A stretch of DNA of 64,000 nucleotides from a phage, in NCBI GenBank assembly GCA_012225525.1, contig GCA_012225525.1_3923.1; one strand, 5' to 3'. The translations under genes and the position numbers were made by a program. Under the pieces are notes generated by a model, which was not told where the DNA came from, ran no database searches, and saw only the letters and a program-made list of their open reading frames with translations. Positions 42,631 to 49,367 of this stretch are shown here, one piece after another. Each line of letters opens with the position of its first letter. Position 1 is the first letter of the stretch.

Positions 42631-44046
42631 ATGAGCGAATTATTTAAACATGCGCACCTTCATGCAGGTCGAACTGAAAATGGTGCTGTAAACCATACTT
42701 CATCAATGTCTACTCTTGTAGACTTTTACAAAGCTGCTGGTTCAAGCCGTAGCAATGTAGAAATCTTACCAGACTTGTTCTACAAAGCTTTGCGTGAGGA
42801 TGTTGATGTTGCAGTTCGTATTTTACTGCATATGCGAGATGTACGAGAAGGCATGGGTGAGCGTAAAGCCTTCAGAACTGTTTTGCTTCAAGCGATTGAA
42901 GATGAAGTTTTAGAGCCTACGCAGGTTCTTCGCATTATGGATAAGATTGCAGAACTTGGTCGTTTTGATGACTTCAAAATCTTTGTAGGTACTCGTTTCG
43001 AGACAGATGCCTTCAAGCATTTAGAAGCAGCATTACTAGACCCTGCAACAGCAGGTTTGGCGGCTAAGTGGTTACCACGAGTCAAACCACGTCATAAGCA
43101 GTTTGTAAAACGTTTCTGCAAGTTTGCCAACTTGAGTGAGAAAGAGTACCGCACACTGTTGTCTGCACTATCTGATACAGTTGAGCAAAAAATCTCTGCT
43201 AATGAGTTTGGTAAGATTGACTACAGTAAGATTCCTTCACTTGCTGCTGCACGTTACCAAAAACTGTTTAACCGTAAAGATGGAGAGCGTTACAAAGCTT
43301 ACATCGAGTCCTTATCAAAAGGTGAGACTAAGATTAACGCTGGTGCTGTTTACCCATACGATGTGATTAAATCTTTCAAGTATGGTAATGCAGATGTTGC
43401 TAATGAGCAGTGGAAAGCACTACCAAACTGGATGGCAGAAGGTGAAAACATCTTGTGTATGTCTGATGTATCAAGTTCAATGTCTTGGGTGAATTTTGGC
43501 TCCATTACTGCTCTGGATATTGGTGTATCACTTGCCTTGTATGTAGCAGAACGCAATACAGGTTGCTTTAAGAATGAGTTGATGGTTTATTCGACAAACC
43601 CTCACTTCATCGAACTGAGTGGTGATTTACGAAACCGTCATCGTCAGGTGATGCGACACGTTGAATATGGCTCAACTAACTTACAAGCAGCTTTTGACCG
43701 CATTCTTGAAACAGGTAAAAGAAACAACTTGACTCAGAAAGATATGCCAAGTAAGCTTATCATCTTCTCCGATATGGAGTTCAATCAGGTTGATGGAGCT
43801 AACGGTCGTACAAACTTTGAAGCAATTCAGAGTAAGTACAAAAAAGCTGGATATGAGATGCCACAACTGGTATTCTGGTACTTAGCAAACCGTAATGGTA
43901 CTTGCGAAGTATCTGTTAAGGATAACGGTGTAGCAATGGTATCAGGGTTCTCTCCAGCCACTTTAAAAGCTCTGCTTGGTGGTGAGAAGTTTGACCCAAT
44001 CAGTGTAATGCTCAAAGCAGTAATGATTGACCGTTATATCTGGTAA
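42631..44046 (+). CDS. von Willebrand factor A (vWA) domain protein with MIDAS motif
   Basis: DVSSSMS (DxSxS) MIDAS motif about residue 280; 471 aa; sits immediately upstream of the tRNA array. Confidence 0.5.
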   Translation: MSELFKHAHLHAGRTENGAVNHTSSMSTLVDFYKAAGSSRSNVEILPDLFYKALREDVDVAVRILLHMRDVREGMGERKAFRTVLLQAIEDEVLEPTQVLRIMDKIAELGRFDDFKIFVGTRFETDAFKHLEAALLDPATAGLAAKWLPRVKPRHKQFVKRFCKFANLSEKEYRTLLSALSDTVEQKISANEFGKIDYSKIPSLAAARYQKLFNRKDGERYKAYIESLSKGETKINAGAVYPYDVIKSFKYGNADVANEQWKALPNWMAEGENILCMSDVSSSMSWVNFGSITALDIGVSLALYVAERNTGCFKNELMVYSTNPHFIELSGDLRNRHRQVMRHVEYGSTNLQAAFDRILETGKRNNLTQKDMPSKLIIFSDMEFNQVDGANGRTNFEAIQSKYKKAGYEMPQLVFWYLANRNGTCEVSVKDNGVAMVSGFSPATLKALLGGEKFDPISVMLKAVMIDRYIW

Positions 44047-44064: not shown

Positions 44065-44093
44065 TTGACAATGTGTTTAATACCCTTTAATAT
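44065..44093 (+). promoter_or_regulatory. sigma70-like promoter for tRNA array, -35 inside hairpin
   Basis: TTGACA-17-TAATAT; flanking inverted repeat AAGGGTATT/AATACCCTT. Confidence 0.5.
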
Positions 44094-44211
44094 GTTCTAC
44101 ATAGAAACGAAATGAGAGCTTTTCTAAGATACTGAAAAATATTTTAAAAAAGTTCTTGACAACCACTAAAAAATAATGTTAAAGTGGTTACATAGAGTTT
44201 GAAAAGTTTAT

Positions 44212-44288
44212 CTCTGTTTAGCTCAGCTTGGTAGAGCGTTCCGTTTGGGGCGGTAAGGCCGGAGGTTCAAGTCCTCCAACAGAGACCA
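44212..44288 (+). tRNA. tRNA-Pro (anticodon TGG)
   Basis: Manual cloverleaf; T-arm GGAGG-TTCAAGT-CCTCC; CCA encoded. Confidence 0.7.
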
Positions 44289-44295
44289 AATTAAT

Positions 44296-44373
44296 GTTCC
44301 AGTAGACAAAATGGTAAAGTCACCACTCTTTCAAAGTGGATATCTGAGGGTTCAAATCCCTTCTGGAACGCCA
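44296..44373 (+). tRNA. tRNA-Glu (anticodon TTC)
   Basis: Acceptor GTTCCAG/CTGGAAC; anticodon loop CTTTCAA. Confidence 0.7.
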
Positions 44374-44463
44374 GTTTTGACAGAAGACCAATTACAGCAA
44401 ACTTAATCTACTCATCTGAAAGTTAATCGGACAAAGAAGATATTTGGTCTGGTCATTAAGAAT

Positions 44464-44540
44464 TGCGGGTATAGAGAAAGGGCGTCTCACATGTCTCATT
44501 AGCATGGTATCGGCAGGTTCGACTCCTGCACCCGCCTCCA
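44464..44540 (+). tRNA. tRNA-like element, anticodon arm unresolved
   Basis: Perfect T-arm GCAGG-TTCGACT-CCTGC and CCA end; internal GTCTCA duplication. Confidence 0.3.
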
Positions 44541-44623
44541 AATTTACAGAAGACCGTTTACAGCAATATTTATTAAATTTTTAGCGGAAAAATTGAAAGA
44601 TACGGTCTGGTAATACTAAACAT

Positions 44624-44700
44624 GGTTAGGAAGCACATAAGGTATGTGCGGTCGCCTGTTAAGCGAATGGCACAGGGTTCGAATCCCTGACTAACCGCCA
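44624..44700 (+). tRNA. tRNA-Asn (anticodon GTT)
   Basis: Anticodon loop CTGTTAA; T-arm CAGGG-TTCGAAT-CCCTG. Confidence 0.7.
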
Positions 44701-44769
44701 AATTTAGGAGAGAAGCGATTGCTCACCGATTTGTAAGGTGCAAGTCCTTAGCCTGAATAGAAATCAAAT

Positions 44770-44857
44770 GTGTCGTTATCCCGTAGATGGTAGCGGTGGG
44801 GACTGTAAATCCCTTGTCATTGAGACTCGGTAGGTTCGACTCCTACACGGCACACCA
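44770..44857 (+). tRNA. tRNA-Tyr (anticodon GTA), long variable arm
   Basis: Anticodon loop CTGTAAA; 88 nt. Confidence 0.7.
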
Positions 44858-44863
44858 AATAAA

Positions 44864-44941
44864 GGTTATGTAGTTTAATCTGGTTAAAATACTCCCCTGT
44901 CACGGGAGATGATGAGGGTTCAAATCCCTTCATAACCGCCA
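44864..44941 (+). tRNA. tRNA-Asp (anticodon GTC)
   Basis: Acceptor GGTTATG/CATAACC; anticodon stem-loop CTCCC-CTGTCAC-GGGAG. Confidence 0.75.
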
Positions 44942-45370
44942 ATTTTGAGAGGGCTATTTAGCCCCTCCCTTAAAGAGTTCTTACGAGTATTCTTTAAAGG
45001 AGCAGAAGACCAAATACAGCAAGAATGTATGAAATTTCAAGCCAATTCAATTTTGAAAATTTAAAACTTGGTCTGGCTCAACAAATTTACAGAAGACCGT
45101 TTACAGCAAAACTTAAACAATCTATTTCTCCGGTAAAGAAAAGGCGAAGGTTCGATTCCTTCACTCGGCAGATGTCGAGTTGGTGTAATGGTAGCACTTA
45201 AGATGATAAACAACGGTCTGGTAATTATCTTTGTAGATAAGTTATTAAGCTTACCTGTGAGTATGCGACCACAAAGGGTGAAAGGGTAAATTCTAGATTT
45301 AAACCCAAAAAGGCACATCGCTACAGACCTTAAGCAAGTCTGGGTAGCTTATCTACAAAGATAATTTAAT

Positions 45371-45446
45371 GGAAGTGTAGCAGAATGGTGATGCGGCAGA
45401 CTTTTAATCTGACAGGCGATGGGTTCGAATCCCTCCACTTCTACCA
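45371..45446 (+). tRNA. tRNA-Lys (anticodon TTT)
   Basis: Anticodon loop CTTTTAA; T-loop TTCGAAT. Confidence 0.65.
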
Positions 45447-45524
45447 AATTCACCCTTAACTGAGAAACACCTGCGCGGCTGGAAACACCCACTCAACAGT
45501 TTCTCTAACTAGGGTACTTATTCT

Positions 45525-45601
45525 GGTTCAGTCGCAGATAAGGTAATGCAAGGGTCTCATAAGCCCTATGAATGTGGGTTCGATTCCCATCTGAACCTCC
45601 A
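45525..45601 (+). tRNA. tRNA-Met or Ile2 (anticodon CAT)
   Basis: Acceptor GGTTCAG/CTGAACC; anticodon loop CTCATAA. Confidence 0.7.
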
Positions 45602-45602
45602 A

Positions 45603-45678
45603 GCTGGTATAGTTAAGAAGGTTATAACACTCCCCTGATAAGGGAACATCGGTGGTTCGATTCCACCTACCAGTACCA
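45603..45678 (+). tRNA. tRNA-Ile (anticodon GAT)
   Basis: Anticodon loop CTGATAA; T-arm GGTGG-TTCGATT-CCACC. Confidence 0.7.
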
Positions 45679-45693
45679 ATTTCAATAAAGTTG

Positions 45694-45722
45694 TTGACAT
45701 TGAGATGTGACTACTTTATAGT
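45694..45722 (+). promoter_or_regulatory. sigma70-like promoter inside tRNA array
   Basis: TTGACA-17-TATAGT. Confidence 0.5.
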
Positions 45723-45924
45723 AACCTTAGTTTTCGTTGCGTAGCGTCTATTTTGCAAATTTAAAATAAATGCAAACGACAATGTTTTTCTGGCAGTAGC
45801 TTGATAGGCTAAACACCAGTGAGGTCTTCCAATCCCTCATCAAAGAATTTGGCGTACTCGCCCACGGTATGATTAATAAGGTGGGCATCTTTAAGGGCTT
45901 TCTAAGAGAGTCTTTAAAGATAAT

Positions 45925-46001
45925 GCACCCTTAGTTCAATTGGATAGAGCAACGGTCTTCTAAATCGTTAGTTACAGGTTCGAATCCTGTAGGGTGTACC
46001 A
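45925..46001 (+). tRNA. tRNA-Arg (anticodon TCT)
   Basis: Anticodon loop CTTCTAA; T-arm ACAGG-TTCGAAT-CCTGT. Confidence 0.7.
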
Positions 46002-46143
46002 AATAGTTAGCAGATTACTTAGACGGCCTTAGCGGGTCTTCCTGTAGGGAGGTGGTCTGTATCTCATGTTTTCCAGAACATGTAAATAATCTGAGAAGAA
46101 GCTTGACAGTGTTGAGATAACAGGGTAAGCTTCGAATTATAAT

Positions 46144-46226
46144 ATGGGACGATGTTAAGACTCTAAGGCATGAGCAACGGCCTCCAAAACCGTTTCAAAG
46201 GGGTTCAACTCCTCCGTCCCATGCCA
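46144..46226 (+). tRNA. tRNA, probably Trp (anticodon CCA), atypically long D region
   Basis: Perfect acceptor ATGGGAC/GTCCCAT, CCA end, candidate loop CTCCAAA; 83 nt. Confidence 0.4.
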
Positions 46227-46239
46227 AAGTCTTATTAGG

Positions 46240-46327
46240 GGTAGGTAGCGGCTAATGGCAGCCAAACAGTCTTGAAAACTGTTGCCACTGTAGAGATACG
46301 GTGAGGGTTCGACTCCTTTACTTACCG
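46240..46327 (+). tRNA. tRNA-Ser (anticodon TGA), long variable arm
   Basis: Anticodon stem-loop ACAGT-CTTGAAA-ACTGT. Confidence 0.7.
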
Positions 46328-46483
46328 CCTAATAAGATTTACTCCGTCCATGCTTGTTCGCATTGTCGGTTTATCCCTCGTGTATTGTCGTACACTGTCA
46401 AAGCACCTAGTAGGTGTCACGGAGAAGAGATAATATCAAGCTCTCCAAAGGTTCTAGTCACCGGATTAAACAAGACTATGCAA

Positions 46484-46503
46484 AGACCTATTTAGGTCTT
46501 TTT
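46484..46503 (+). terminator. intrinsic terminator within tRNA region
   Basis: AGACCT-ATTT-AGGTCT followed by TTTT. Confidence 0.5.
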
Positions 46504-46582
46504 AGAGGGCTTCTAAGGTTATTACAGCTTGTTGTGGAACCTTGTTGCTTAGGTTCTTAGAAGTTCTCTAAAAAGATTTAAT

Positions 46583-46660
46583 GGGAGATTGACGGTAATT
46601 GGTAAACCTACCATCCTTAGAAGTTGGTGTTTGAGGGTTCGAATCCCTTGTCTCCCACCA
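46583..46660 (+). tRNA. tRNA with anticodon TAG (Leu-type) but short variable loop
   Basis: Anticodon loop CTTAGAA; discriminator A; 5-nt variable loop. Confidence 0.55.
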
Positions 46661-46667
46661 AATTAAT

Positions 46668-46743
46668 GCAGGTGTAGCAAAATGGTTATGCGGCTGACTC
46701 TTAATCAGTAAGACGATGGGTTCAATTCCCTCCACCTGTACCA
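46668..46743 (+). tRNA. tRNA-Lys (anticodon CTT)
   Basis: Anticodon loop CTCTTAA. Confidence 0.65.
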
Positions 46744-46749
46744 AACAAT

Positions 46750-46825
46750 GGGGTCATAGTTTATATGGTTAAAATTCGAGTTTTGCAAACTTGGGAACTG
46801 AGTTCAATTCTCAGTGACTCCACCA
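46750..46825 (+). tRNA. tRNA-Ala (anticodon TGC)
   Basis: Anticodon loop TTTGCAA; T-arm CTGAG-TTCAATT-CTCAG. Confidence 0.7.
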
Positions 46826-46831
46826 ATTAGT

Positions 46832-46906
46832 GCATCCATAGTTTAAACGGGAAAATTACAGTCTTCCAAACTGAGGTTGAGGGTTCGATTCCCTCTGGAT
46901 GCTCCA
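46832..46906 (+). tRNA. tRNA-Gly (anticodon TCC)
   Basis: Acceptor GCATCCA/TGGATGC; anticodon loop CTTCCAA. Confidence 0.7.
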
Positions 46907-46913
46907 AATTAAT

Positions 46914-46989
46914 GCTCCTATCGTATAATTGGCTATTACGGTTGCCTTGTAAGTAACTTATCAGGGTTCGAATCCTTGTGGGAGCACCA
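46914..46989 (+). tRNA. tRNA-Thr (anticodon TGT)
   Basis: Anticodon stem-loop GTTGC-CTTGTAA-GTAAC. Confidence 0.7.
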
Positions 46990-47085
46990 ATTTAGAGGTC
47001 AAGTGAAAGACCGCTTTGAGTCAACTGAAGACCGTAACAAATCCCACGGAGTTGAGTTAGCGGAACAACTTCAGACCTCTTTCAT
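46990..47085 (+). ncRNA. candidate structured spacer RNA
   Basis: Closing inverted repeat AGAGGTC...GACCTCT enclosing TGAAGACCGTAACAAATCC. Confidence 0.3.
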
Positions 47086-47160
47086 ACTCGCTTAGTTTAT
47101 ATGGTAAAACATCACCCTTACAAGATGAAGAAAAAGGTTCAAGTCCTTTAGTGAGTACCA
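47086..47160 (+). tRNA. tRNA-Val (anticodon TAC)
   Basis: Anticodon loop CTTACAA; T-arm AAAGG-TTCAAGT-CCTTT. Confidence 0.6.
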
Positions 47161-47161
47161 T

Positions 47162-47239
47162 GTTCCAGTATCCCAATTGGCAGAGGATGCAAGCTCAAAC
47201 CTTGTACTAGTGACGGTTCGAATCCGTCTTGGAACACCA
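47162..47239 (+). tRNA. tRNA with anticodon CAA (Leu-type) but short variable loop
   Basis: Anticodon stem-loop GCAAG-CTCAAAC-CTTGT; 6-nt variable loop; discriminator A. Confidence 0.55.
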
Positions 47240-47255
47240 ATTTTAGGAGAACACT

Positions 47256-47363
47256 ATGAGTAATAAATCAATTGCAAAAAAGTTTATAGCGTCATTCAAA
47301 AACAGGCGTAAAAACAACTCTTGTGAAAAACTGTATGGTGTTCTTGTAGGTAAGCAGGATTAG
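47256..47363 (+). CDS. very small ORF (35 aa) with strong RBS inside tRNA array
   Basis: TAGGAGAACACTATG; stop overlaps 5' end of the next tRNA. Confidence 0.2.
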   Translation: MSNKSIAKKFIASFKNRRKNNSCEKLYGVLVGKQD

Positions 47364-47429
47364 TTCAAATGGATAGAGCAACAGTCTACGAAGCTGTTAA
47401 TAGGGGTTCGAATCCCTTATCCTGCGCCA
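47354..47429 (+). tRNA. tRNA-Arg (anticodon ACG)
   Basis: Perfect acceptor GCAGGAT/ATCCTGC; anticodon loop CTACGAA. Confidence 0.7.
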
Positions 47430-47448
47430 ATTTAAAGAGGCTATTTAA

Positions 47449-48006
47449 ATGAGATACTTGAAGTATGCTTCATGGATTTTCTTAGCTTTGCTAGAGCCAT
47501 TGGCAGCAATCTTAGCAGTTATCTTAGCACCTTTTGTAGTTCCATTTTACAGTGAGAAGAAAGGACACTTACCTTTTGGATTCAGATGGATGGAGACATA
47601 TGACAACCCGATTGATGGTGATGAAGGTCACGTTAAAAGATGGGCTAAGATTAGAAAGATTGGTAAGCTTGGTGTCTATTTGCAGAGAGTTGGATGGCTC
47701 TGGAGAAACAAAGCTTATAACTTCTCTTACCATGTGTTAGGAAGAGATGTAAAAGATGTTACTAAGTGGAAAGGCAATATCAACGTAAGTTCTGACCCTG
47801 AAGATAATCAGACAGGTTATCTCCTAATGTGGAACAGTAATGCTTGGGGATTATTCGCTTTTATCCCATCAATTAAAGTCTTTGGTAAACAATTCTACTG
47901 GAGAATTTATGTTGGATGGAAGCTAAAAAGTGTTGTCCCAGAAGAAAGAGCATTCTCAAGGGAAAGAGTTATGTTGGCATTCTTTATTCATCCACTGAGA
48001 AAGTAA
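47449..48006 (+). CDS. membrane protein embedded in tRNA array
   Basis: 185 aa; N-terminal hydrophobic segments. Confidence 0.5.
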   Translation: MRYLKYASWIFLALLEPLAAILAVILAPFVVPFYSEKKGHLPFGFRWMETYDNPIDGDEGHVKRWAKIRKIGKLGVYLQRVGWLWRNKAYNFSYHVLGRDVKDVTKWKGNINVSSDPEDNQTGYLLMWNSNAWGLFAFIPSIKVFGKQFYWRIYVGWKLKSVVPEERAFSRERVMLAFFIHPLRK

Positions 48007-48014
48007 AGATTTAA

Positions 48015-48090
48015 AGGGGATTAGTTTACAAGGTTAAAACCTCGGTCTTTGAAATCGAAGAAGTTGGTTCAATTCCAACATCCCCCGCCA
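48015..48090 (+). tRNA. tRNA-Gln (anticodon TTG)
   Basis: Anticodon stem-loop TCGGT-CTTTGAA-ATCGA; T-arm GTTGG-TTCAATT-CCAAC. Confidence 0.65.
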
Positions 48091-48092
48091 AT

Positions 48093-48171
48093 GCTCCATT
48101 ACTCCAATTGGCAGAGAGGCCAGACTTAAAATCTGTGTTATGTATCGGTTCGAATCCGATATGGAGTACCA
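48093..48171 (+). tRNA. tRNA with anticodon TAA (Leu-type) but short variable loop
   Basis: Anticodon loop CTTAAAA; 7-nt variable loop; discriminator A. Confidence 0.55.
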
Positions 48172-48176
48172 AATTT

Positions 48177-48252
48177 AGCGGTATAGCATAACTGGCAATG
48201 CAGCAGTCTCTGAAGCTGTCTTATTAAGGTTCAAATCCTTATGCCGCTGCCA
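48177..48252 (+). tRNA. tRNA-Gln (anticodon CTG)
   Basis: Anticodon loop CTCTGAA; T-arm TAAGG-TTCAAAT-CCTTA. Confidence 0.65.
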
Positions 48253-48283
48253 CTTCTAAGGATTCTTACGAGAGTCCTTAAAT

Positions 48284-48359
48284 GTGGCCTTATCATAAAT
48301 GGTAATGACCCATGCTGTGAACATGGTCTATACGGGTTCAAATCCCGTAGGTCACCCCA
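48284..48359 (+). tRNA. tRNA-His (anticodon GTG)
   Basis: Anticodon stem-loop CCATG-CTGTGAA-CATGG. Confidence 0.7.
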
Positions 48360-48364
48360 ATTTA

Positions 48365-48439
48365 TAGTCCAAGTAGCTTATATGGTTAAAGCGCGTGTCT
48401 GAAAAACATGAGAAGAGGGTTCAAATCCCACTGGACTAC
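48365..48439 (+). tRNA. tRNA-Phe (anticodon GAA), CCA not encoded
   Basis: Acceptor TAGTCCA/TGGACTA; anticodon loop CTGAAAA. Confidence 0.65.
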
Positions 48440-48457
48440 CAATTTCAAAGGTGCTTA

Positions 48458-49192
48458 ATGAAAGAGATGACAGAACAAGGTAAGGAGATTTTTAATCTCT
48501 TAAAAACTGGTAAAGGGTTTTCTAACCCCCTTATTACTGGTGCAGCAGTTCTCGGTGGAACCGTAGCTGCCTCTACATCACTTGTAAGCTCTATTAGTTC
48601 TGTATCAGACCCTACAGTAAAGGATAAGCTTGTTGCTGCTGGACTTACAACAGTTCTGCTTAACAGCTTTACCACGAGTCTGACAAGCACTACATCAACT
48701 ACCAAAACACTGACAGATTACGGTCAAAAGTCCATTGATGAGTTTTCATCACGTATGCAGGTAGCAAAAGGTTATTCTAATGTTATGGGTGCAGCAGGTG
48801 AACAAGTTGGCTGTACACCATTTAGTGGTATTATGGGTGTTGCTACAGAGTATGGTCAAAAAGCTATTGATATGATTAACAGTGCACTAGACGGTGTTAA
48901 TGATGTATTAAGTGACTTACAAGACGCTATTGACAAAGGTCTTGATACTATTTCTGATTTAGCTAACCAAGCTGTTAGTAAGATTAATGAAGGTATCTCG
49001 AAGATTACAGCTTATGCAGATGAAGTTGTGCAGATGATTGAAGAAGAAGCTGCCCTTATTGCAGAGTACCTTAAAACGAATATCAATGGGTTCTTAGCAG
49101 GTATCTTACCAGACTGGTTTGATGATGCTTGTAAAACTGGTGTAATTGACACTATTGCAACACCAGAAATGAAGAACGCATTACAGAAATAA
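48458..49192 (+). CDS. Ser/Thr-rich hypothetical protein
   Basis: ATG 48458 after AAAGG; track start 48395 lies inside tRNA-Phe. Confidence 0.5.
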   Translation: MKEMTEQGKEIFNLLKTGKGFSNPLITGAAVLGGTVAASTSLVSSISSVSDPTVKDKLVAAGLTTVLLNSFTTSLTSTTSTTKTLTDYGQKSIDEFSSRMQVAKGYSNVMGAAGEQVGCTPFSGIMGVATEYGQKAIDMINSALDGVNDVLSDLQDAIDKGLDTISDLANQAVSKINEGISKITAYADEVVQMIEEEAALIAEYLKTNINGFLAGILPDWFDDACKTGVIDTIATPEMKNALQK

Positions 49193-49194
49193 AT

Positions 49195-49287
49195 GGAAGA
49201 TTAACCCTAAAAGGTAAGGGAGCAGTTTGCTAAACTGCCAGTAGCTGAGAAATCGGTGTACCAGTTCAAGTCTGGTATCTTCCTCCA
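49195..49287 (+). tRNA. tRNA-Ser (anticodon GCT), long variable arm
   Basis: Perfect acceptor GGAAGAT/ATCTTCC; anticodon stem-loop GCAGT-TTGCTAA-ACTGC. Confidence 0.75.
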
Positions 49288-49291
49288 ATTT

Positions 49292-49367
49292 GAATCCGTG
49301 ACAGAAATGGCTATGTGCCTGTCTGCAAAACAGGTTTATAAGGGTTCGAGTCCCTTCGGATTCTCCA
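49292..49367 (+). tRNA. tRNA-Cys (anticodon GCA)
   Basis: Perfect acceptor GAATCCG/CGGATTC; anticodon stem-loop CCTGT-CTGCAAA-ACAGG. Confidence 0.75.

What the first reader, a model, noticed from the sequence alone, without database searches (positions are those of the whole stretch)
44374..47085. Recurrent ~20-nt motif and closing-stem structures in the spacers between tRNA genes
The motif CAGAAGACC(A/G)NTTACAGCAA occurs at about 44378, 44552, 45015 and 45086, with a variant TGAAGACCGTAACAAATCC at 47027. Each is followed 40-110 nt later by the partly complementary GGTCTGG (44447, 44604, 45069, 45215). Two spacers are closed by long inverted repeats: CTTTGTAGATAAG...AGCTTACC (45229-45256) pairs with GGTAGCTTATCTACAAAG (45333-45350), and AGAGGTC (46994) pairs with GACCTCT (47074). 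A further conserved hairpin TTCTTACGAG appears at 44975 and 48262. These look like small stable RNAs or processing signals, as known in T4 and T5 tRNA regions.
Basis: seen in the sequence. Interest (0 to 1): 0.6.

Follow-up and report, generated by a model that had tools for sequence, protein, structure and literature searches.

The report
Phage Ro-like protein's partner small RNAs
The four repeats between the tRNA genes of this Felix O1-like phage look like small RNAs that partner a neighbouring Ro60-shaped protein, and their frame matches the enigmatic "Class I" RNAs so far known only from Dictyostelium.

Summary
CAGAAGACCNNNTACAGCAA occurs four times (0.17 expected), and each copy is closed by a fully complementary, co-varying 7-8 bp helix. 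The 47027 "variant" is a chance match and not a member.

The window is a Felixounavirus. The gene 332 nt upstream (42631-44046, DUF2828+DUF7788) has a Ro60 fold: the top eight PDB matches are all Ro60/TROVE.

The same RNA frame, (A)AGR-helix / (U)UACAGCAA / variable part / helix-YCU-G, lies beside DUF2828 genes in Gram-negative, Gram-positive, mycobacterial and uncultivated phages.
- The structural pattern matches 152 times on the gene strand, 33 on the opposite strand and 17-40 in shuffles.
- A model trained on named phages found 32 hits in 75 independent loci, all on the gene strand and 29 within 600 nt of the gene.

Unit 4, like one long unit in many phages, carries a permuted tRNA-like module (T arm, closed acceptor stem, D arm) as in bacterial YrlA Y RNAs. 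The short units match Rfam's Dictyostelium Class I RNA model below its threshold.

Best explanation: Y-RNA-like partners of a Ro-fold protein, released from the tRNA transcript. RNA binding, expression and a Dictyostelium DUF2828 protein remain untested.

The parts
42631..44046 (+). Gene for a 471-aa Ro60-fold protein (helical ring plus von Willebrand A domain), proposed protein partner of the RNAs. It is the homolog of Bas63 gp130.
   Evidence: Pfam DUF2828 (1.2e-28) plus DUF7788 (1.8e-43), with no TROVE hit. PHROG 850 'RNA-binding protein'. AlphaFold2 model with pLDDT 88.9. The Foldseek top 8 PDB hits are all Ro60/TROVE, E 3e-8 to 6e-7, TM 0.5-0.64. Homologs in mycobacteriophages are annotated 'Ro-like RNA binding protein'. 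The Bas63 homolog counters the ppl defence system (preprint).
44065..44185 (+). Two promoter-like sites (44065-44093 and 44156-44185) that would drive the tRNA/RNA-unit transcript.
   Evidence: 10 of 12 consensus matches each. No + strand terminator-like site lies between 44100 and the next strong promoter-like site at 45694. These are consensus matches only.
44378..44455 (+). Unit 1 (78 nt), between tRNA-Glu and tRNA-Met. Layout: outer helix UGAC/GUCA, AGA/G internal loop, inner helix AGACCAA/UUGGUCU, box UUACAGCAA (44392-44400).
   Evidence: Family model R1: 32.0 bits, E 1.1e-4 over the whole window, although this unit is a training sequence.
44544..44613 (+). Unit 2 (70 nt), between tRNA-Met and tRNA-Asn. 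Layout: UUAC/GUAA, AGA/G, AGACCGU/ACGGUCU, box UUACAGCAA (44558-44566).
   Evidence: R1: 36.6 bits, E 9e-6. Rfam Dicty_Class_I_RNA: 20.1 bits, full-length match. The outer helix changes A-U to G-C in other Felixounaviruses (L015, L019).
45000..45079 (+). Unit 3 (80 nt). Layout: GAGC/GCUC, AGA/G, AGACCAA/UUGGUCU, box AUACAGCAA (45014-45022).
   Evidence: R1: 28.7 bits, E 6e-4.
45087..45224 (+). Unit 4 (138 nt), the long form. It has the same frame (UUAC/GUAA, AGA/G, AGACCGUU/AACGGUCU, box UACAGCAA 45102-45109) enclosing a permuted tRNA-like module.
   Evidence: Rfam tRNA matches the V and T region only: 23.3 bits, model positions 14-71. The Moogle homolog keeps the module with a completely different acceptor-like stem.
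45146..45197 (+). The tRNA-like module of unit 4. T arm GAAGG-UUCGAUU-CCUUC (45146-45162); acceptor-like stem closed by a loop, ACUCGGC-agau-GUCGAGU (45163-45180); D arm GUGU-aaugguа-GCAC (45183-45197).
   Evidence: Read directly from the sequence and found by the scans. The V-T-AS-D order is that described for YrlA (PMC4201824).

Best explanation
The four units are genes for small non-coding RNAs that act as Y-RNA-like partners of the Ro60-fold protein encoded 332 nt upstream.

Proposed mechanism:
- The units are transcribed from the tRNA-cluster promoters as part of the polycistronic tRNA precursor (inferred).
- They are released when RNase P and the 3'-end nucleases cut out the flanking tRNAs (inferred).
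- Each RNA folds so that its ends form a helix whose base is 5'-AGR / YCU-G-3'. The single-stranded box (U)UACAGCAA sits directly on the 5' strand (shown by covariation and conservation).
- This invariant platform is proposed to be the binding site of the Ro-fold protein (inferred from the strict gene-RNA linkage).
- The variable interior is a module that recruits or gates other factors. In unit 4 it is a tRNA mimic, as in YrlA, which in bacteria and in Thermus phage phiLo tethers Ro60 to polynucleotide phosphorylase.

The resulting particle would remodel or degrade structured or damaged RNA during infection. It would plausibly contribute to the anti-defence (ppl counter) role reported for the Bas63 homolog.
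For: (1) The motif and helices are far beyond chance, and they co-vary inside the window.

(2) The neighbouring protein has the Ro60 fold.

(3) Units with the same frame but different helix sequences lie beside the DUF2828 gene, on its strand, in 12 of 14 named phages: Yersinia, Citrobacter, Aeromonas, Campylobacter, Listeria, Mycobacterium, Sinorhizobium, Enterococcus, Bacillus, Staphylococcus, Fusobacterium and, weakly, Vibrio.

(4) Over 94 loci, the structural pattern gives 152 matches on the gene strand, 33 on the opposite strand and 17-40 in shuffles. 72 of 94 loci have at least one.

(5) Cross-validation. Model R1 was trained only on named phages. In 75 independent IMG/VR loci (637 kb) it finds 32 hits at E <= 1. 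All are on the gene strand, and 29 lie within 600 nt of the gene.

(6) In that independent set, 6 of 7 helix pairs show double changes. Pairing is 96% against 67% in shuffles and about 40% in slid controls. The terminal A-U (28/32), G-C (30/32) and the 3' G (30/32) are nearly fixed.

(7) Long units in 18 distinct cases carry T arm, closed acceptor stem and D arm, and every acceptor stem is different. Several hit Rfam YrlA at 28.7-39.2 bits, one over the full model 1-114.

(8) Canonical phage Ro60 binds adjacent Y-like RNAs and host PNPase (PMC12135203). At least one Y RNA per bacterial species has a tRNA-like domain (PMC4201824).

(9) The authors of the Bas63 study, a Felixounavirus, noted the Ro60 similarity of gp130 and guessed that Y RNAs hide in the tRNA region.
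Against: - There is no expression, end-mapping or binding data for any of these RNAs.
- The protein is not recognised as TROVE by sequence.
- The YrlA Ro-binding motif GNCGAAN0-1G is absent.
- No Rfam family reaches its gathering score on the window units.
- Two large phages, Aeh1 and CBB, show no units within 6 kb of the gene.
- In many phages the units lie directly upstream of the gene, so a cis-acting (leader) role cannot be excluded.
- Helix pairing in the training alignment is partly a consequence of how the units were picked.
Confidence: 0.7

Rival explanations
1. The units are cis-acting protein-binding sites or leader elements within the operon transcripts of the Ro-like gene (for example autoregulation of its mRNA), and not free RNAs.
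For: In Listeria A511, Campylobacter F371, Aeromonas 4_4572, Enterococcus VRE9_4, Fusobacterium Fnu1 and many IMG/VR loci, the units lie 0-250 nt upstream of the gene on the same strand. In Vibrio phi-pp2 the single unit abuts the start codon.
Against: - In the window, Staphylococcus S-CoN_Ph1 and Mycobacterium Whirlwind the units are downstream of the gene.
- In the window they are separated from the gene by two promoter-like sites and two tRNA genes.
- There are up to 8 tandem copies, and the long forms carry tRNA mimics.
- The matching Dictyostelium RNAs are free, abundant 42-65-nt species.
Confidence: 0.1
2. The units are punctuation or processing signals (RNase E/III/P guides or stabilising hairpins) of the tRNA precursor.
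For: They lie exactly in inter-tRNA spacers and abut tRNA ends in Ounavirinae, Bacillus Skywalker and Aeromonas 4_4572. The extra outer helix in Ounavirinae could help excision.
Against: - The same units occur without nearby tRNA genes.
- Most tRNA spacers in the window (2-8 nt) have none.
- An invariant single-stranded box plus a tRNA mimic is not what a cleavage signal needs.
- The linkage is to the DUF2828 gene.
Confidence: 0.08
3. The units are free decoy or sponge RNAs that act on host factors (a defence nuclease, PNPase, tRNA enzymes, or an RRM protein as in Dictyostelium) independently of the Ro-fold protein. Co-location with the gene would then reflect a shared pathway only.
For: Unit 4 mimics a tRNA body, and many long units encode (N)CCA in the acceptor loop. 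Phage tRNA clusters are commonly read as counter-defence (general knowledge). Dictyostelium Class I RNA DdR-21 binds the RRM protein Rnp1A directly.
Against: The tight, strand-specific linkage to one protein family across phyla is most simply explained by direct partnership, as for Ro60 and Y RNA. The conserved part is the frame, not the variable 'decoy' part.
Confidence: 0.09
4. The units are decaying repeats: rearranged tRNA pseudogenes or remnants of a small mobile repeat, with no function.
For: Unit 4 contains tRNA halves in permuted order. The four copies share about 30 nt.
Against: - There are compensatory changes in both helices and in the acceptor-like stem.
- The box is conserved from Mycobacterium to Campylobacter phages while everything else differs.
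- No copies lie elsewhere in the 64-kb window.
Confidence: 0.03

Closest known systems
Bacterial and phage Y RNAs of the YrlA type with Ro60/Rsr (Rfam RF02553; Chen et al. 2014, PMC4201824; Thermus phage phiLo Ro60-Yrl1/2, PMC12135203)
   Same: - Small RNAs are encoded within about 1-2 kb of, and on the same strand as, a ring-shaped Ro60-fold protein.
- There are several RNAs per locus, one of which has a tRNA-like domain in the order V, T arm, closed acceptor-like stem, D arm.
- The ends pair into a stem with a conserved single-stranded motif on the 5' side.
- Long relatives score 28.7-39.2 bits on the YrlA model.
   Different: - The protein belongs to another sequence family (DUF2828/DUF7788, not Pfam TROVE).
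- The recognition motif is (U)UACAGCAA with an AGR/YCU-G helix base, not GNCGAAN0-1G / CGAA.
- Scores are below Rfam's gathering score of 69, and the window's unit 4 gets no YrlA hit at all.
- The units are embedded in a tRNA operon.
Class I RNAs of dictyostelid social amoebae (Rfam RF01414; Kjellin et al. 2021, PMC7919456)
   Same: [quoted passage not shown]
- The conserved motif CCUUACAGCAA sits directly 3' of the 5' strand. Its near-invariant positions U3, C6, C9, A10 and A11 are all kept in the phage box.
- The termini are (A)AG...CUG(U), with the G-C pair fixed.
- There is an A-rich run before the 3' strand, the rest is variable, and the length is about 50-70 nt.
- The phage units give full-length sub-threshold hits: seven in one 1-kb spacer of Aeromonas phage 4_4572 at 19-29.6 bits, plus hits in the window, L076 and L080.
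- Real Class I sequences read from the paper's supplement (e.g. GGUCCUCUUACAGCAACCAAAC...GGGGACCUG) are nearly superimposable on phage units (AGGUUCCUUACAGCAACCCCUA...GGGAACCUG).
   Different: - Class I RNAs are eukaryotic, independently transcribed genes with a DUSE promoter element. They were reported as absent outside Dictyostelia.
- Their known direct binder is an RRM protein (Rnp1A), and no Ro-like partner is known.
- The phage helix-to-box spacing is 1 nt shorter.
- Phage scores are below the gathering score of 41.5.
- No long tRNA-like forms have been described in Dictyostelium.
Bas63 gp130 (Felixounavirus), reported as Ro60-like and as a counter of the ppl defence system (bioRxiv 10.1101/2024.10.10.617714)
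   Same: It is the same gene family and genus as window ORF 42631-44046. The Bas63 genome (JohannRWettstein) matches the window's tRNA region at 96.5% and the protein at 97.5%. The authors noted the Ro60 similarity and the position upstream of the tRNA genes.
   Different: They only speculated that 'some tRNA genes are possibly Y RNAs'. The candidate RNAs identified here are in the spacers, not among the annotated tRNAs. They are defined by a frame that the preprint does not mention in the two passages retrieved from it.

Membership tests
YrlA-type Y RNA (Rfam RF02553) | Reaches the Rfam gathering score (69 bits) | tested here: not met
   No YrlA hit on window units, even at E <= 10 on a 151-nt search. 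Related long units in other phages reach 28.7-39.2 bits.
YrlA-type Y RNA (Rfam RF02553) | tRNA-like domain in the order V, T arm, acceptor-like stem-loop, D arm between the paired ends | tested here: met
   Unit 4: V hairpin UUUCU-ccgguaa-AGAAA, T arm 45146-45162, AS 45163-45180, D arm 45183-45197. The same order is seen in 18 long units of other phages.
YrlA-type Y RNA (Rfam RF02553) | GNCGAAN0-1G (CGAA) Ro-binding motif near the 5' end | tested here: not met
   The units carry ACAGAAGACC...UUACAGCAA. The invariant box is CAGCAA, not CGAA. Motif definition taken from PMC4201824.
YrlA-type Y RNA (Rfam RF02553) | Encoded next to a Ro60 ortholog (TROVE plus vWA) | tested here: inconclusive
   The adjacent protein has the Ro60 fold but no Pfam TROVE match and no sequence-level PDB hit.
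YrlA-type Y RNA (Rfam RF02553) | Physically bound by the Ro protein | not testable with these tools
   Needs immunoprecipitation or a gel-shift assay.
Dictyostelium Class I RNA (Rfam RF01414) | Reaches the Rfam gathering score (41.5 bits) | tested here: not met
   Window unit 2: 20.1 bits. Unit 4: 12.8 bits. The best phage unit reaches 29.6 bits.
Dictyostelium Class I RNA (Rfam RF01414) | Short stem joining the 5' and 3' ends, conserved in structure but not in sequence | tested here: met
   A 7-bp helix with double changes at 6-7 of 7 pairs. Feature definition.
Dictyostelium Class I RNA (Rfam RF01414) | 11-nt motif CCUUACAGCAA adjacent to the 5' strand, with U3, C6, C9, A10 and A11 near invariant | tested here: met
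   The window has UUACAGCAA three times and AUACAGCAA once, directly after the helix. In the independent set: C 32/32, A 29/32, G 32/32, C 32/32, A 32/32, A 28/32. The first two motif positions are part of the helix in phages.
Dictyostelium Class I RNA (Rfam RF01414) | Conserved termini AAG...CUGU, with the G pairing to the C | tested here: met
   Independent phage set: A 28/32, G 32/32 ... C 30/32, U 29/32, G 30/32. The window has AG...CUGG. True RNA ends are unknown.
Dictyostelium Class I RNA (Rfam RF01414) | Independent eukaryotic genes with a DUSE promoter element about 60 nt upstream; restricted to Dictyostelia | tested here: not met
   The source is a phage genome, and the units lie inside a tRNA operon behind sigma-70-like promoter sites.
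Ro60/TROVE proteins (for ORF 42631-44046) | Helical-repeat ring followed by a von Willebrand A domain (fold) | tested here: met
   The Foldseek top 8 hits are Ro60/TROVE chains covering about 510-570 aligned columns, followed by isolated vWA domains. The model is confident, pLDDT 88.9.
Ro60/TROVE proteins (for ORF 42631-44046) | Pfam TROVE (PF05731) sequence signature | tested here: not met
   Only DUF2828 and DUF7788 match at E <= 0.1. The same holds for ten distant homologs.
   No T4 or T5 sequence was compared. No T4- or T5-like phage carried spacer similarity in the DNA search; only the tRNA genes matched.

The most novel reading that the evidence does not exclude
The phage units and the Dictyostelium Class I RNAs are one RNA family, and its conserved protein partner is the DUF2828/DUF7788 Ro-fold protein.

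On this reading, Class I RNAs are the Y RNAs of a second, unrecognised branch of Ro-like particles found in phages and eukaryotes. Their mechanism has been unknown since 2004, and they were thought to be unique to social amoebae.

A concrete prediction follows. Dictyostelia encode a DUF2828 protein, possibly the function-unknown protein DDB_G0281243 that was pulled down with Class I RNA DdR-21. That protein should bind the AAG-stem/CCUUACAGCAA/CUGU frame.
Probability: 0.35. Interest if true: 0.95.

Novelty: new variant of a known kind. Interest (0 to 1): 0.85.

Why it matters
- **It identifies the missing RNA partners.** A Ro60-shaped protein family (DUF2828, PHROG 850) is very widespread in phages. 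The tblastn search found it in 710 phage records spanning Escherichia, Mycobacterium, Listeria, Staphylococcus, Vibrio, Campylobacter and other hosts. One member has a reported anti-defence phenotype. Concrete RNA candidates make its mechanism testable.
- **It broadens what Ro/Y-RNA particles can look like.** The pairing of ring protein, closing stem with a single-stranded box, and exchangeable module (including a tRNA mimic) exists with a different protein sequence family and a different recognition box.
- **It connects to an old open question.** The frame is the one that defines the Class I RNAs of Dictyostelium, which are abundant, developmentally regulated and of unknown mechanism. This gives a specific hypothesis (a Ro-like partner) that one domain search and one pull-down could test.
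- **It affects annotation.** These spacers are currently blank or mis-called as tiny ORFs in phage records (for example Yersinia phage P778).

Tried and rejected
- The Rfam gathering-threshold scan of the whole window found tRNAs only.
- Filing unit 4 under YrlA was rejected. It gets no hit on the Rfam model and lacks the CGAA motif.
- I first read unit 4 as a split or permuted functional tRNA, or as a pseudogene. I rejected that in favour of a tRNA mimic, because the anticodon arm is replaced by the conserved frame and the acceptor stem is closed by a loop and co-varies.
- The 47027 'variant' and the 46990-47085 spacer are not members.
- MAFFT plus RNAalifold on 15 long units aligned only the T arm. 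The modules were therefore tabulated by a script instead.
- R1 with filters off handled the long interiors worse than the default run and added nothing.
- Sequence-level links from the protein to solved Ro60 structures failed. Only the fold comparison worked.
- Several attempts to learn whether Dictyostelium has a DUF2828 protein failed:
  - The afdb50 library was unavailable.
  - Avesson et al. 2011 is not held.
  - Searches for DUF2828, UCP015417 and 'Dictyostelium' with 'TROVE domain' returned nothing bearing on the question. A search for DDB_G0281243 returned only the Kjellin preprint already read. The Kjellin supplements hold none of the terms DDB_G0281243, DUF2828, vWA or GuaB.
  - No phage homolog is close enough to the Pfam DUF2828 seed to serve as a bridge query.
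- The outgroup 'Class I candidates' listed by Kjellin et al. (for example Arabidopsis ath_can_1, CM score 40) could not be evaluated.

Full report
**What is in the sequence**

The window is a Felix O1-like phage (Felixounavirus); the tRNA region matches many such genomes at 95-99%. A cluster of 26 tRNA genes lies on the + strand from 44212 to 49367. It occurs nowhere else in 64 kb even with three mismatches, against 0.17 expected. Each copy is followed by GGTCTGG.

Read with the two variable bases, the pairing is complete: AGACCAA/UUGGUCU in units 1 and 3, and AGACCGU(U)/(A)ACGGUCU in units 2 and 4. That gives two compensatory positions. A second, outer 4-bp helix co-varies as well (UGAC/GUCA, UUAC/GUAA, GAGC/GCUC). 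The two helices are separated by an AGA/G internal loop.

The units are:

| Unit | Coordinates | Length |
|---|---|---|
| 1 | 44378-44455 | 78 nt |
| 2 | 44544-44613 | 70 nt |
| 3 | 45000-45079 | 80 nt |
| 4 | 45087-45224 | 138 nt |

The interiors are unrelated to one another. The '47027 variant' shares only a 9-mer (about 0.5 expected by chance), lacks the box, and is not detected by the family model.

- the 45229-45350 inverted repeat (z -5.85);
- the AGAGGTC/GACCTCT stem (z -3.6);
- the TTCTTACGAG hairpins.

**Unit 4 holds a tRNA mimic**

Inside unit 4 the sequence reads as follows:
- T arm GAAGG-UUCGAUU-CCUUC;
- a 7-bp acceptor-like stem closed by a loop, ACUCGGC-agau-GUCGAGU;
- D arm GUGU-aaugguа-GCAC.

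These are preceded by a small hairpin in the variable-arm position. This is a circularly permuted tRNA body whose anticodon arm is replaced by the unit's closing helix. It is the architecture described for bacterial YrlA Y RNAs (V, T, AS, D; PMC4201824). In phage Moogle the homologous unit keeps everything but has a completely different acceptor-like stem, ACCCUUC-gccaaaca-GAAGGGU.

**The neighbouring gene**

ORF 42631-44046 ends 332 nt before unit 1. It matches Pfam DUF2828 plus DUF7788 and PHROG 850 'RNA-binding protein'. It has no sequence-level match to solved structures. An AlphaFold2 model built on 39 homologs is confident (pLDDT 88.9). Its eight best PDB matches are all Ro60/TROVE proteins: Xenopus and human Ro60, Deinococcus Rsr, Thermus phage phiLo Ro60 and a 'Trove domain' entry, at E 3e-8 to 6e-7. 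Isolated vWA domains follow.

Mycobacteriophage homologs are annotated 'Ro-like RNA binding protein'. A 2024 preprint on Bas63, a Felixounavirus, reports that the homolog gp130 resembles Ro60 and counters the ppl defence system. The authors speculate, without identifying any, that 'some tRNA genes are possibly Y RNAs'.

**The RNA frame follows the gene across phages**

I fetched the gene's surroundings from 14 named phages and 80 uncultivated viral contigs. A simple structural pattern was used: a helix of at least 6-7 bp, 1-4 nt, CAGCAA, 15-140 nt, then the complementary strand. It finds units beside the gene, on its strand, in these phages:

| Phage | Units found (protein identity to the window, where noted) |
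|---|---|
| Yersinia P778 | 3 (53%) |
| Moogle | 4 |
| Aeromonas 4_4572 | about 8 |
| Campylobacter F371 | 2 (37%) |
| Listeria A511 | 3 (29%) |
| Mycobacterium Whirlwind | 3 (34%) |
| Enterococcus VRE9_4 | 1 |
| Bacillus Skywalker | 3, inside its tRNA cluster |
| Staphylococcus S-CoN_Ph1 | 3 |
| Fusobacterium Fnu1 | 1 |
| Sinorhizobium phiM12 | 2 |
| Vibrio phi-pp2 | 1, weak |

Aeh1 and CBB showed none within 6 kb.

Over all 94 loci there are 152 matches on the gene strand, 33 on the other strand and 17-40 in dinucleotide shuffles. 72 loci have at least one, and the matches pile up within 250 nt of the gene ends.

For a test free of my pattern, I trained covariance model R1 on 35 units from the window and the named phages and searched 75 independent contigs (637 kb). 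It returned 32 hits at E <= 1, all 32 on the gene strand, 29 within 600 nt of the gene.

In that independent alignment:
- the helix is 96% paired, against 67% in shuffles and about 40% when partners are slid;
- six of seven pairs show double changes;
- the two outermost pairs are nearly fixed as A-U and G-C;
- the base after the helix is G in 30 of 32;
- the box reads C32 A29 G32 C32 A32 A28.

The consensus is (a)A-G-R-NNNN-(u)U(a)CAGCAA ... A-rich ... NNNN-Y-C-U-G-(w).

**Short and long forms**

Most loci have short units (25-50 nt interiors) and often one long unit. In 18 distinct long units the interior is T arm, closed acceptor-like stem, D arm. Every acceptor stem is different, and several loops begin with (N)CCA.

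Some long units hit Rfam YrlA below threshold:

| Locus | Score | Note |
|---|---|---|
| Whirlwind | 38.3 bits | |
| L033 | 39.2 bits | |
| L080 | 38.9 bits | over the whole model, 1-114 |
| L080 | 28.7 bits | |

[quoted passage not shown] A second recurrent interior module, without a T arm, appears in four contigs.

**The link to Dictyostelium**

When small regions were scanned against Rfam at permissive thresholds, the only family that kept appearing on the short units was RF01414, the Class I RNAs of Dictyostelium:
- window unit 2, 20.1 bits, and unit 4, 12.8 bits;
- seven full-length hits of 19-29.6 bits (E down to 0.003) in the single 1-kb spacer upstream of the gene in Aeromonas phage 4_4572;
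- hits on units of L076 and L080.

All are below the gathering score of 41.5, so formal membership is not met. Yet the defining features listed by Kjellin et al. are all present:
- a stem of about 6 bp joining the ends and varying by compensatory change;
- the motif CCUUACAGCAA directly after the 5' strand, with its five near-invariant positions kept;
- termini AAG...CUGU with the G-C pair fixed;
- a variable remainder;
- a length near 60 nt.

Actual Class I sequences from that paper's supplement are almost superimposable on phage units. [quoted passage not shown]

DUF2828 is known to have plant members (Aeh1 record note). I could not determine whether Dictyostelium has one. The preprint version of Kjellin et al. 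lists a function-unknown protein, DDB_G0281243, among the four proteins pulled down with Class I RNA DdR-21.

**How it most likely works**

Shown:
- the architecture;
- its covariation;
- its linkage to the Ro-fold gene;
- the tRNA-like module.

Inferred:
- The units are transcribed from the promoter-like sites at 44065 and 44156 with the tRNAs. No + strand terminator-like site lies before 45690.
- They are released by tRNA end-processing.
- The invariant platform (AGR/YCU-G helix base plus the ACAGCAA strand) binds the Ro-fold protein.
- The variable module recruits other factors. By analogy with Rsr-YrlA-PNPase and with phiLo Ro60-Yrl-PNPase, unit 4 would tether the particle to host PNPase or to tRNA-handling enzymes.

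The gene often sits beside tRNA clusters, RNA ligases and a CCA-adding enzyme, and the Bas63 homolog has the ppl-counter phenotype. Both fit an RNA repair/decay or counter-defence role.

Rivals are a cis-acting leader element, tRNA-processing punctuation, independent decoys, and decaying repeats. They are weighed in the rival list. None explains the strand-specific, cross-phylum linkage to one protein family as simply.

**Verdict**

These are members of an undescribed phage RNA family that looks like the Y-RNA partner set of a second kind of Ro-like protein, and its frame equals that of Dictyostelium Class I RNAs.

I found no description of these RNAs in Rfam 15 or in the searchable literature. 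The closest prior statement is the speculation in the Bas63 preprint.

I rate it a new variant of a known kind (the Ro/Y-RNA principle), of high interest. The main uncertainties are the lack of expression and binding data and the untested presence of a DUF2828 protein in Dictyostelium.

Noticed in passing
window 45694-45924 (tag-like ORF 45772-45807): Behind the strongest promoter-like site of the region (45694-45722, 11/12), the sequence reads GCA AAC GAC AAT GTT TTT CTG GCA GTA GCT TGA TAG = ANDNVFLAVA**, which resembles a tmRNA tag. Rfam gives weak hits here: tmRNA_permuted 29.2 bits and tmRNA 15.7 bits. ARAGORN calls a permuted tmRNA with exactly this tag in phage Moogle (L002:7382-8130) but not in the window. 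This may be a phage-encoded tmRNA-like RNA.
   Followed up: partly
window 46146-46220: A tRNA-like gene missed by ARAGORN. It has acceptor ATGGGAC/GTCCCAT, a T arm GGGGTTCAACTCCTC and a 3' GCCA, with a possible anticodon CCA (Trp) in an odd anticodon loop. Its only Rfam hit is tRNA-Sec at 23 bits.
   Followed up: no
window 45226-45365: A 140-nt structured spacer closed by a 20-bp stem (z -5.85), with 3 compensatory stem changes against Moogle and a diverged interior. Its last inner hairpin, AGAC-CUUAAGCAA-GUCU-GG (Moogle: AAACC-CUUUAGCAA-GGUUU-G), looks like a miniature of the unit frame. It could be a fifth, degenerate binding site.
   Followed up: partly
window 44964-44995 and 48253-48283; L001:7722-7750: Conserved hairpins containing CUUACGAG, that is a UACG (UNCG-type) tetraloop, placed after tRNA-Asp and after tRNA-Gln. 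One is also present in Yersinia phage P778. They are not family members. Their role (stability or processing) is unknown.
   Followed up: no
window 46990-47085 and 45447-45524: Two further structured spacers (z -3.6 and -4.3). The first is almost invariant in Moogle and absent from P778 at the same position. Neither has the box. Function unknown.
   Followed up: partly
L005 (Aeromonas phage Aeh1) 9920-10300: Three tRNA-like genes with long internal insertions, or a doubled T arm. One is annotated as a 122-nt tRNA-Val, and none is called by ARAGORN. They may be intron-containing or otherwise unusual tRNAs, 2.5 kb from the DUF2828 gene.
   Followed up: no
L021:3133-3232, L024:149-280, L025:1265-1373, L036:3734-3828: Long units in four uncultivated phages share a different interior module, GAACCUUUCUGGAGGGGAAAGCAAAAACUCGCC, in place of the tRNA-like one. 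This suggests a second kind of exchangeable module.
   Followed up: no
L002:7466-7487, L008:7585-7605, L009, L070, L080 long units: In many long units the loop closing the acceptor-like stem begins with (N)CCA. The RNA is therefore a permuted tRNA with an encoded CCA end, a possible substrate for RNase P as shown for M. smegmatis YrlA. The window's unit 4 loop is AGAU and has no CCA.
   Followed up: partly
Loci L004, L007, L010, L011, L014 (gene neighbourhoods): DUF2828 genes repeatedly sit next to tRNA clusters (Listeria A511, Enterococcus VRE9_4, Bacillus Skywalker, Campylobacter F371). Aeromonas 4_4572 also carries an RNA ligase 2 gene about 3.7 kb downstream. In CBB an RNA ligase gene lies about 0.7 kb upstream and a CCA-adding enzyme gene about 3.5 kb downstream. 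In Mycobacterium Whirlwind a Band-7-like gene lies about 1.3 kb upstream.
   Followed up: no
Supplemental Table S4 of PMC7919456: Among the outgroup candidates that the authors dismissed is an Arabidopsis sequence, ath_can_1 (UGUUUUC-AUUACAGCAAUCAAAC...GAAAAC-UG), with CM score 40. Plants have DUF2828 proteins, so this candidate deserves a second look. Its genomic position is not given.
   Followed up: no
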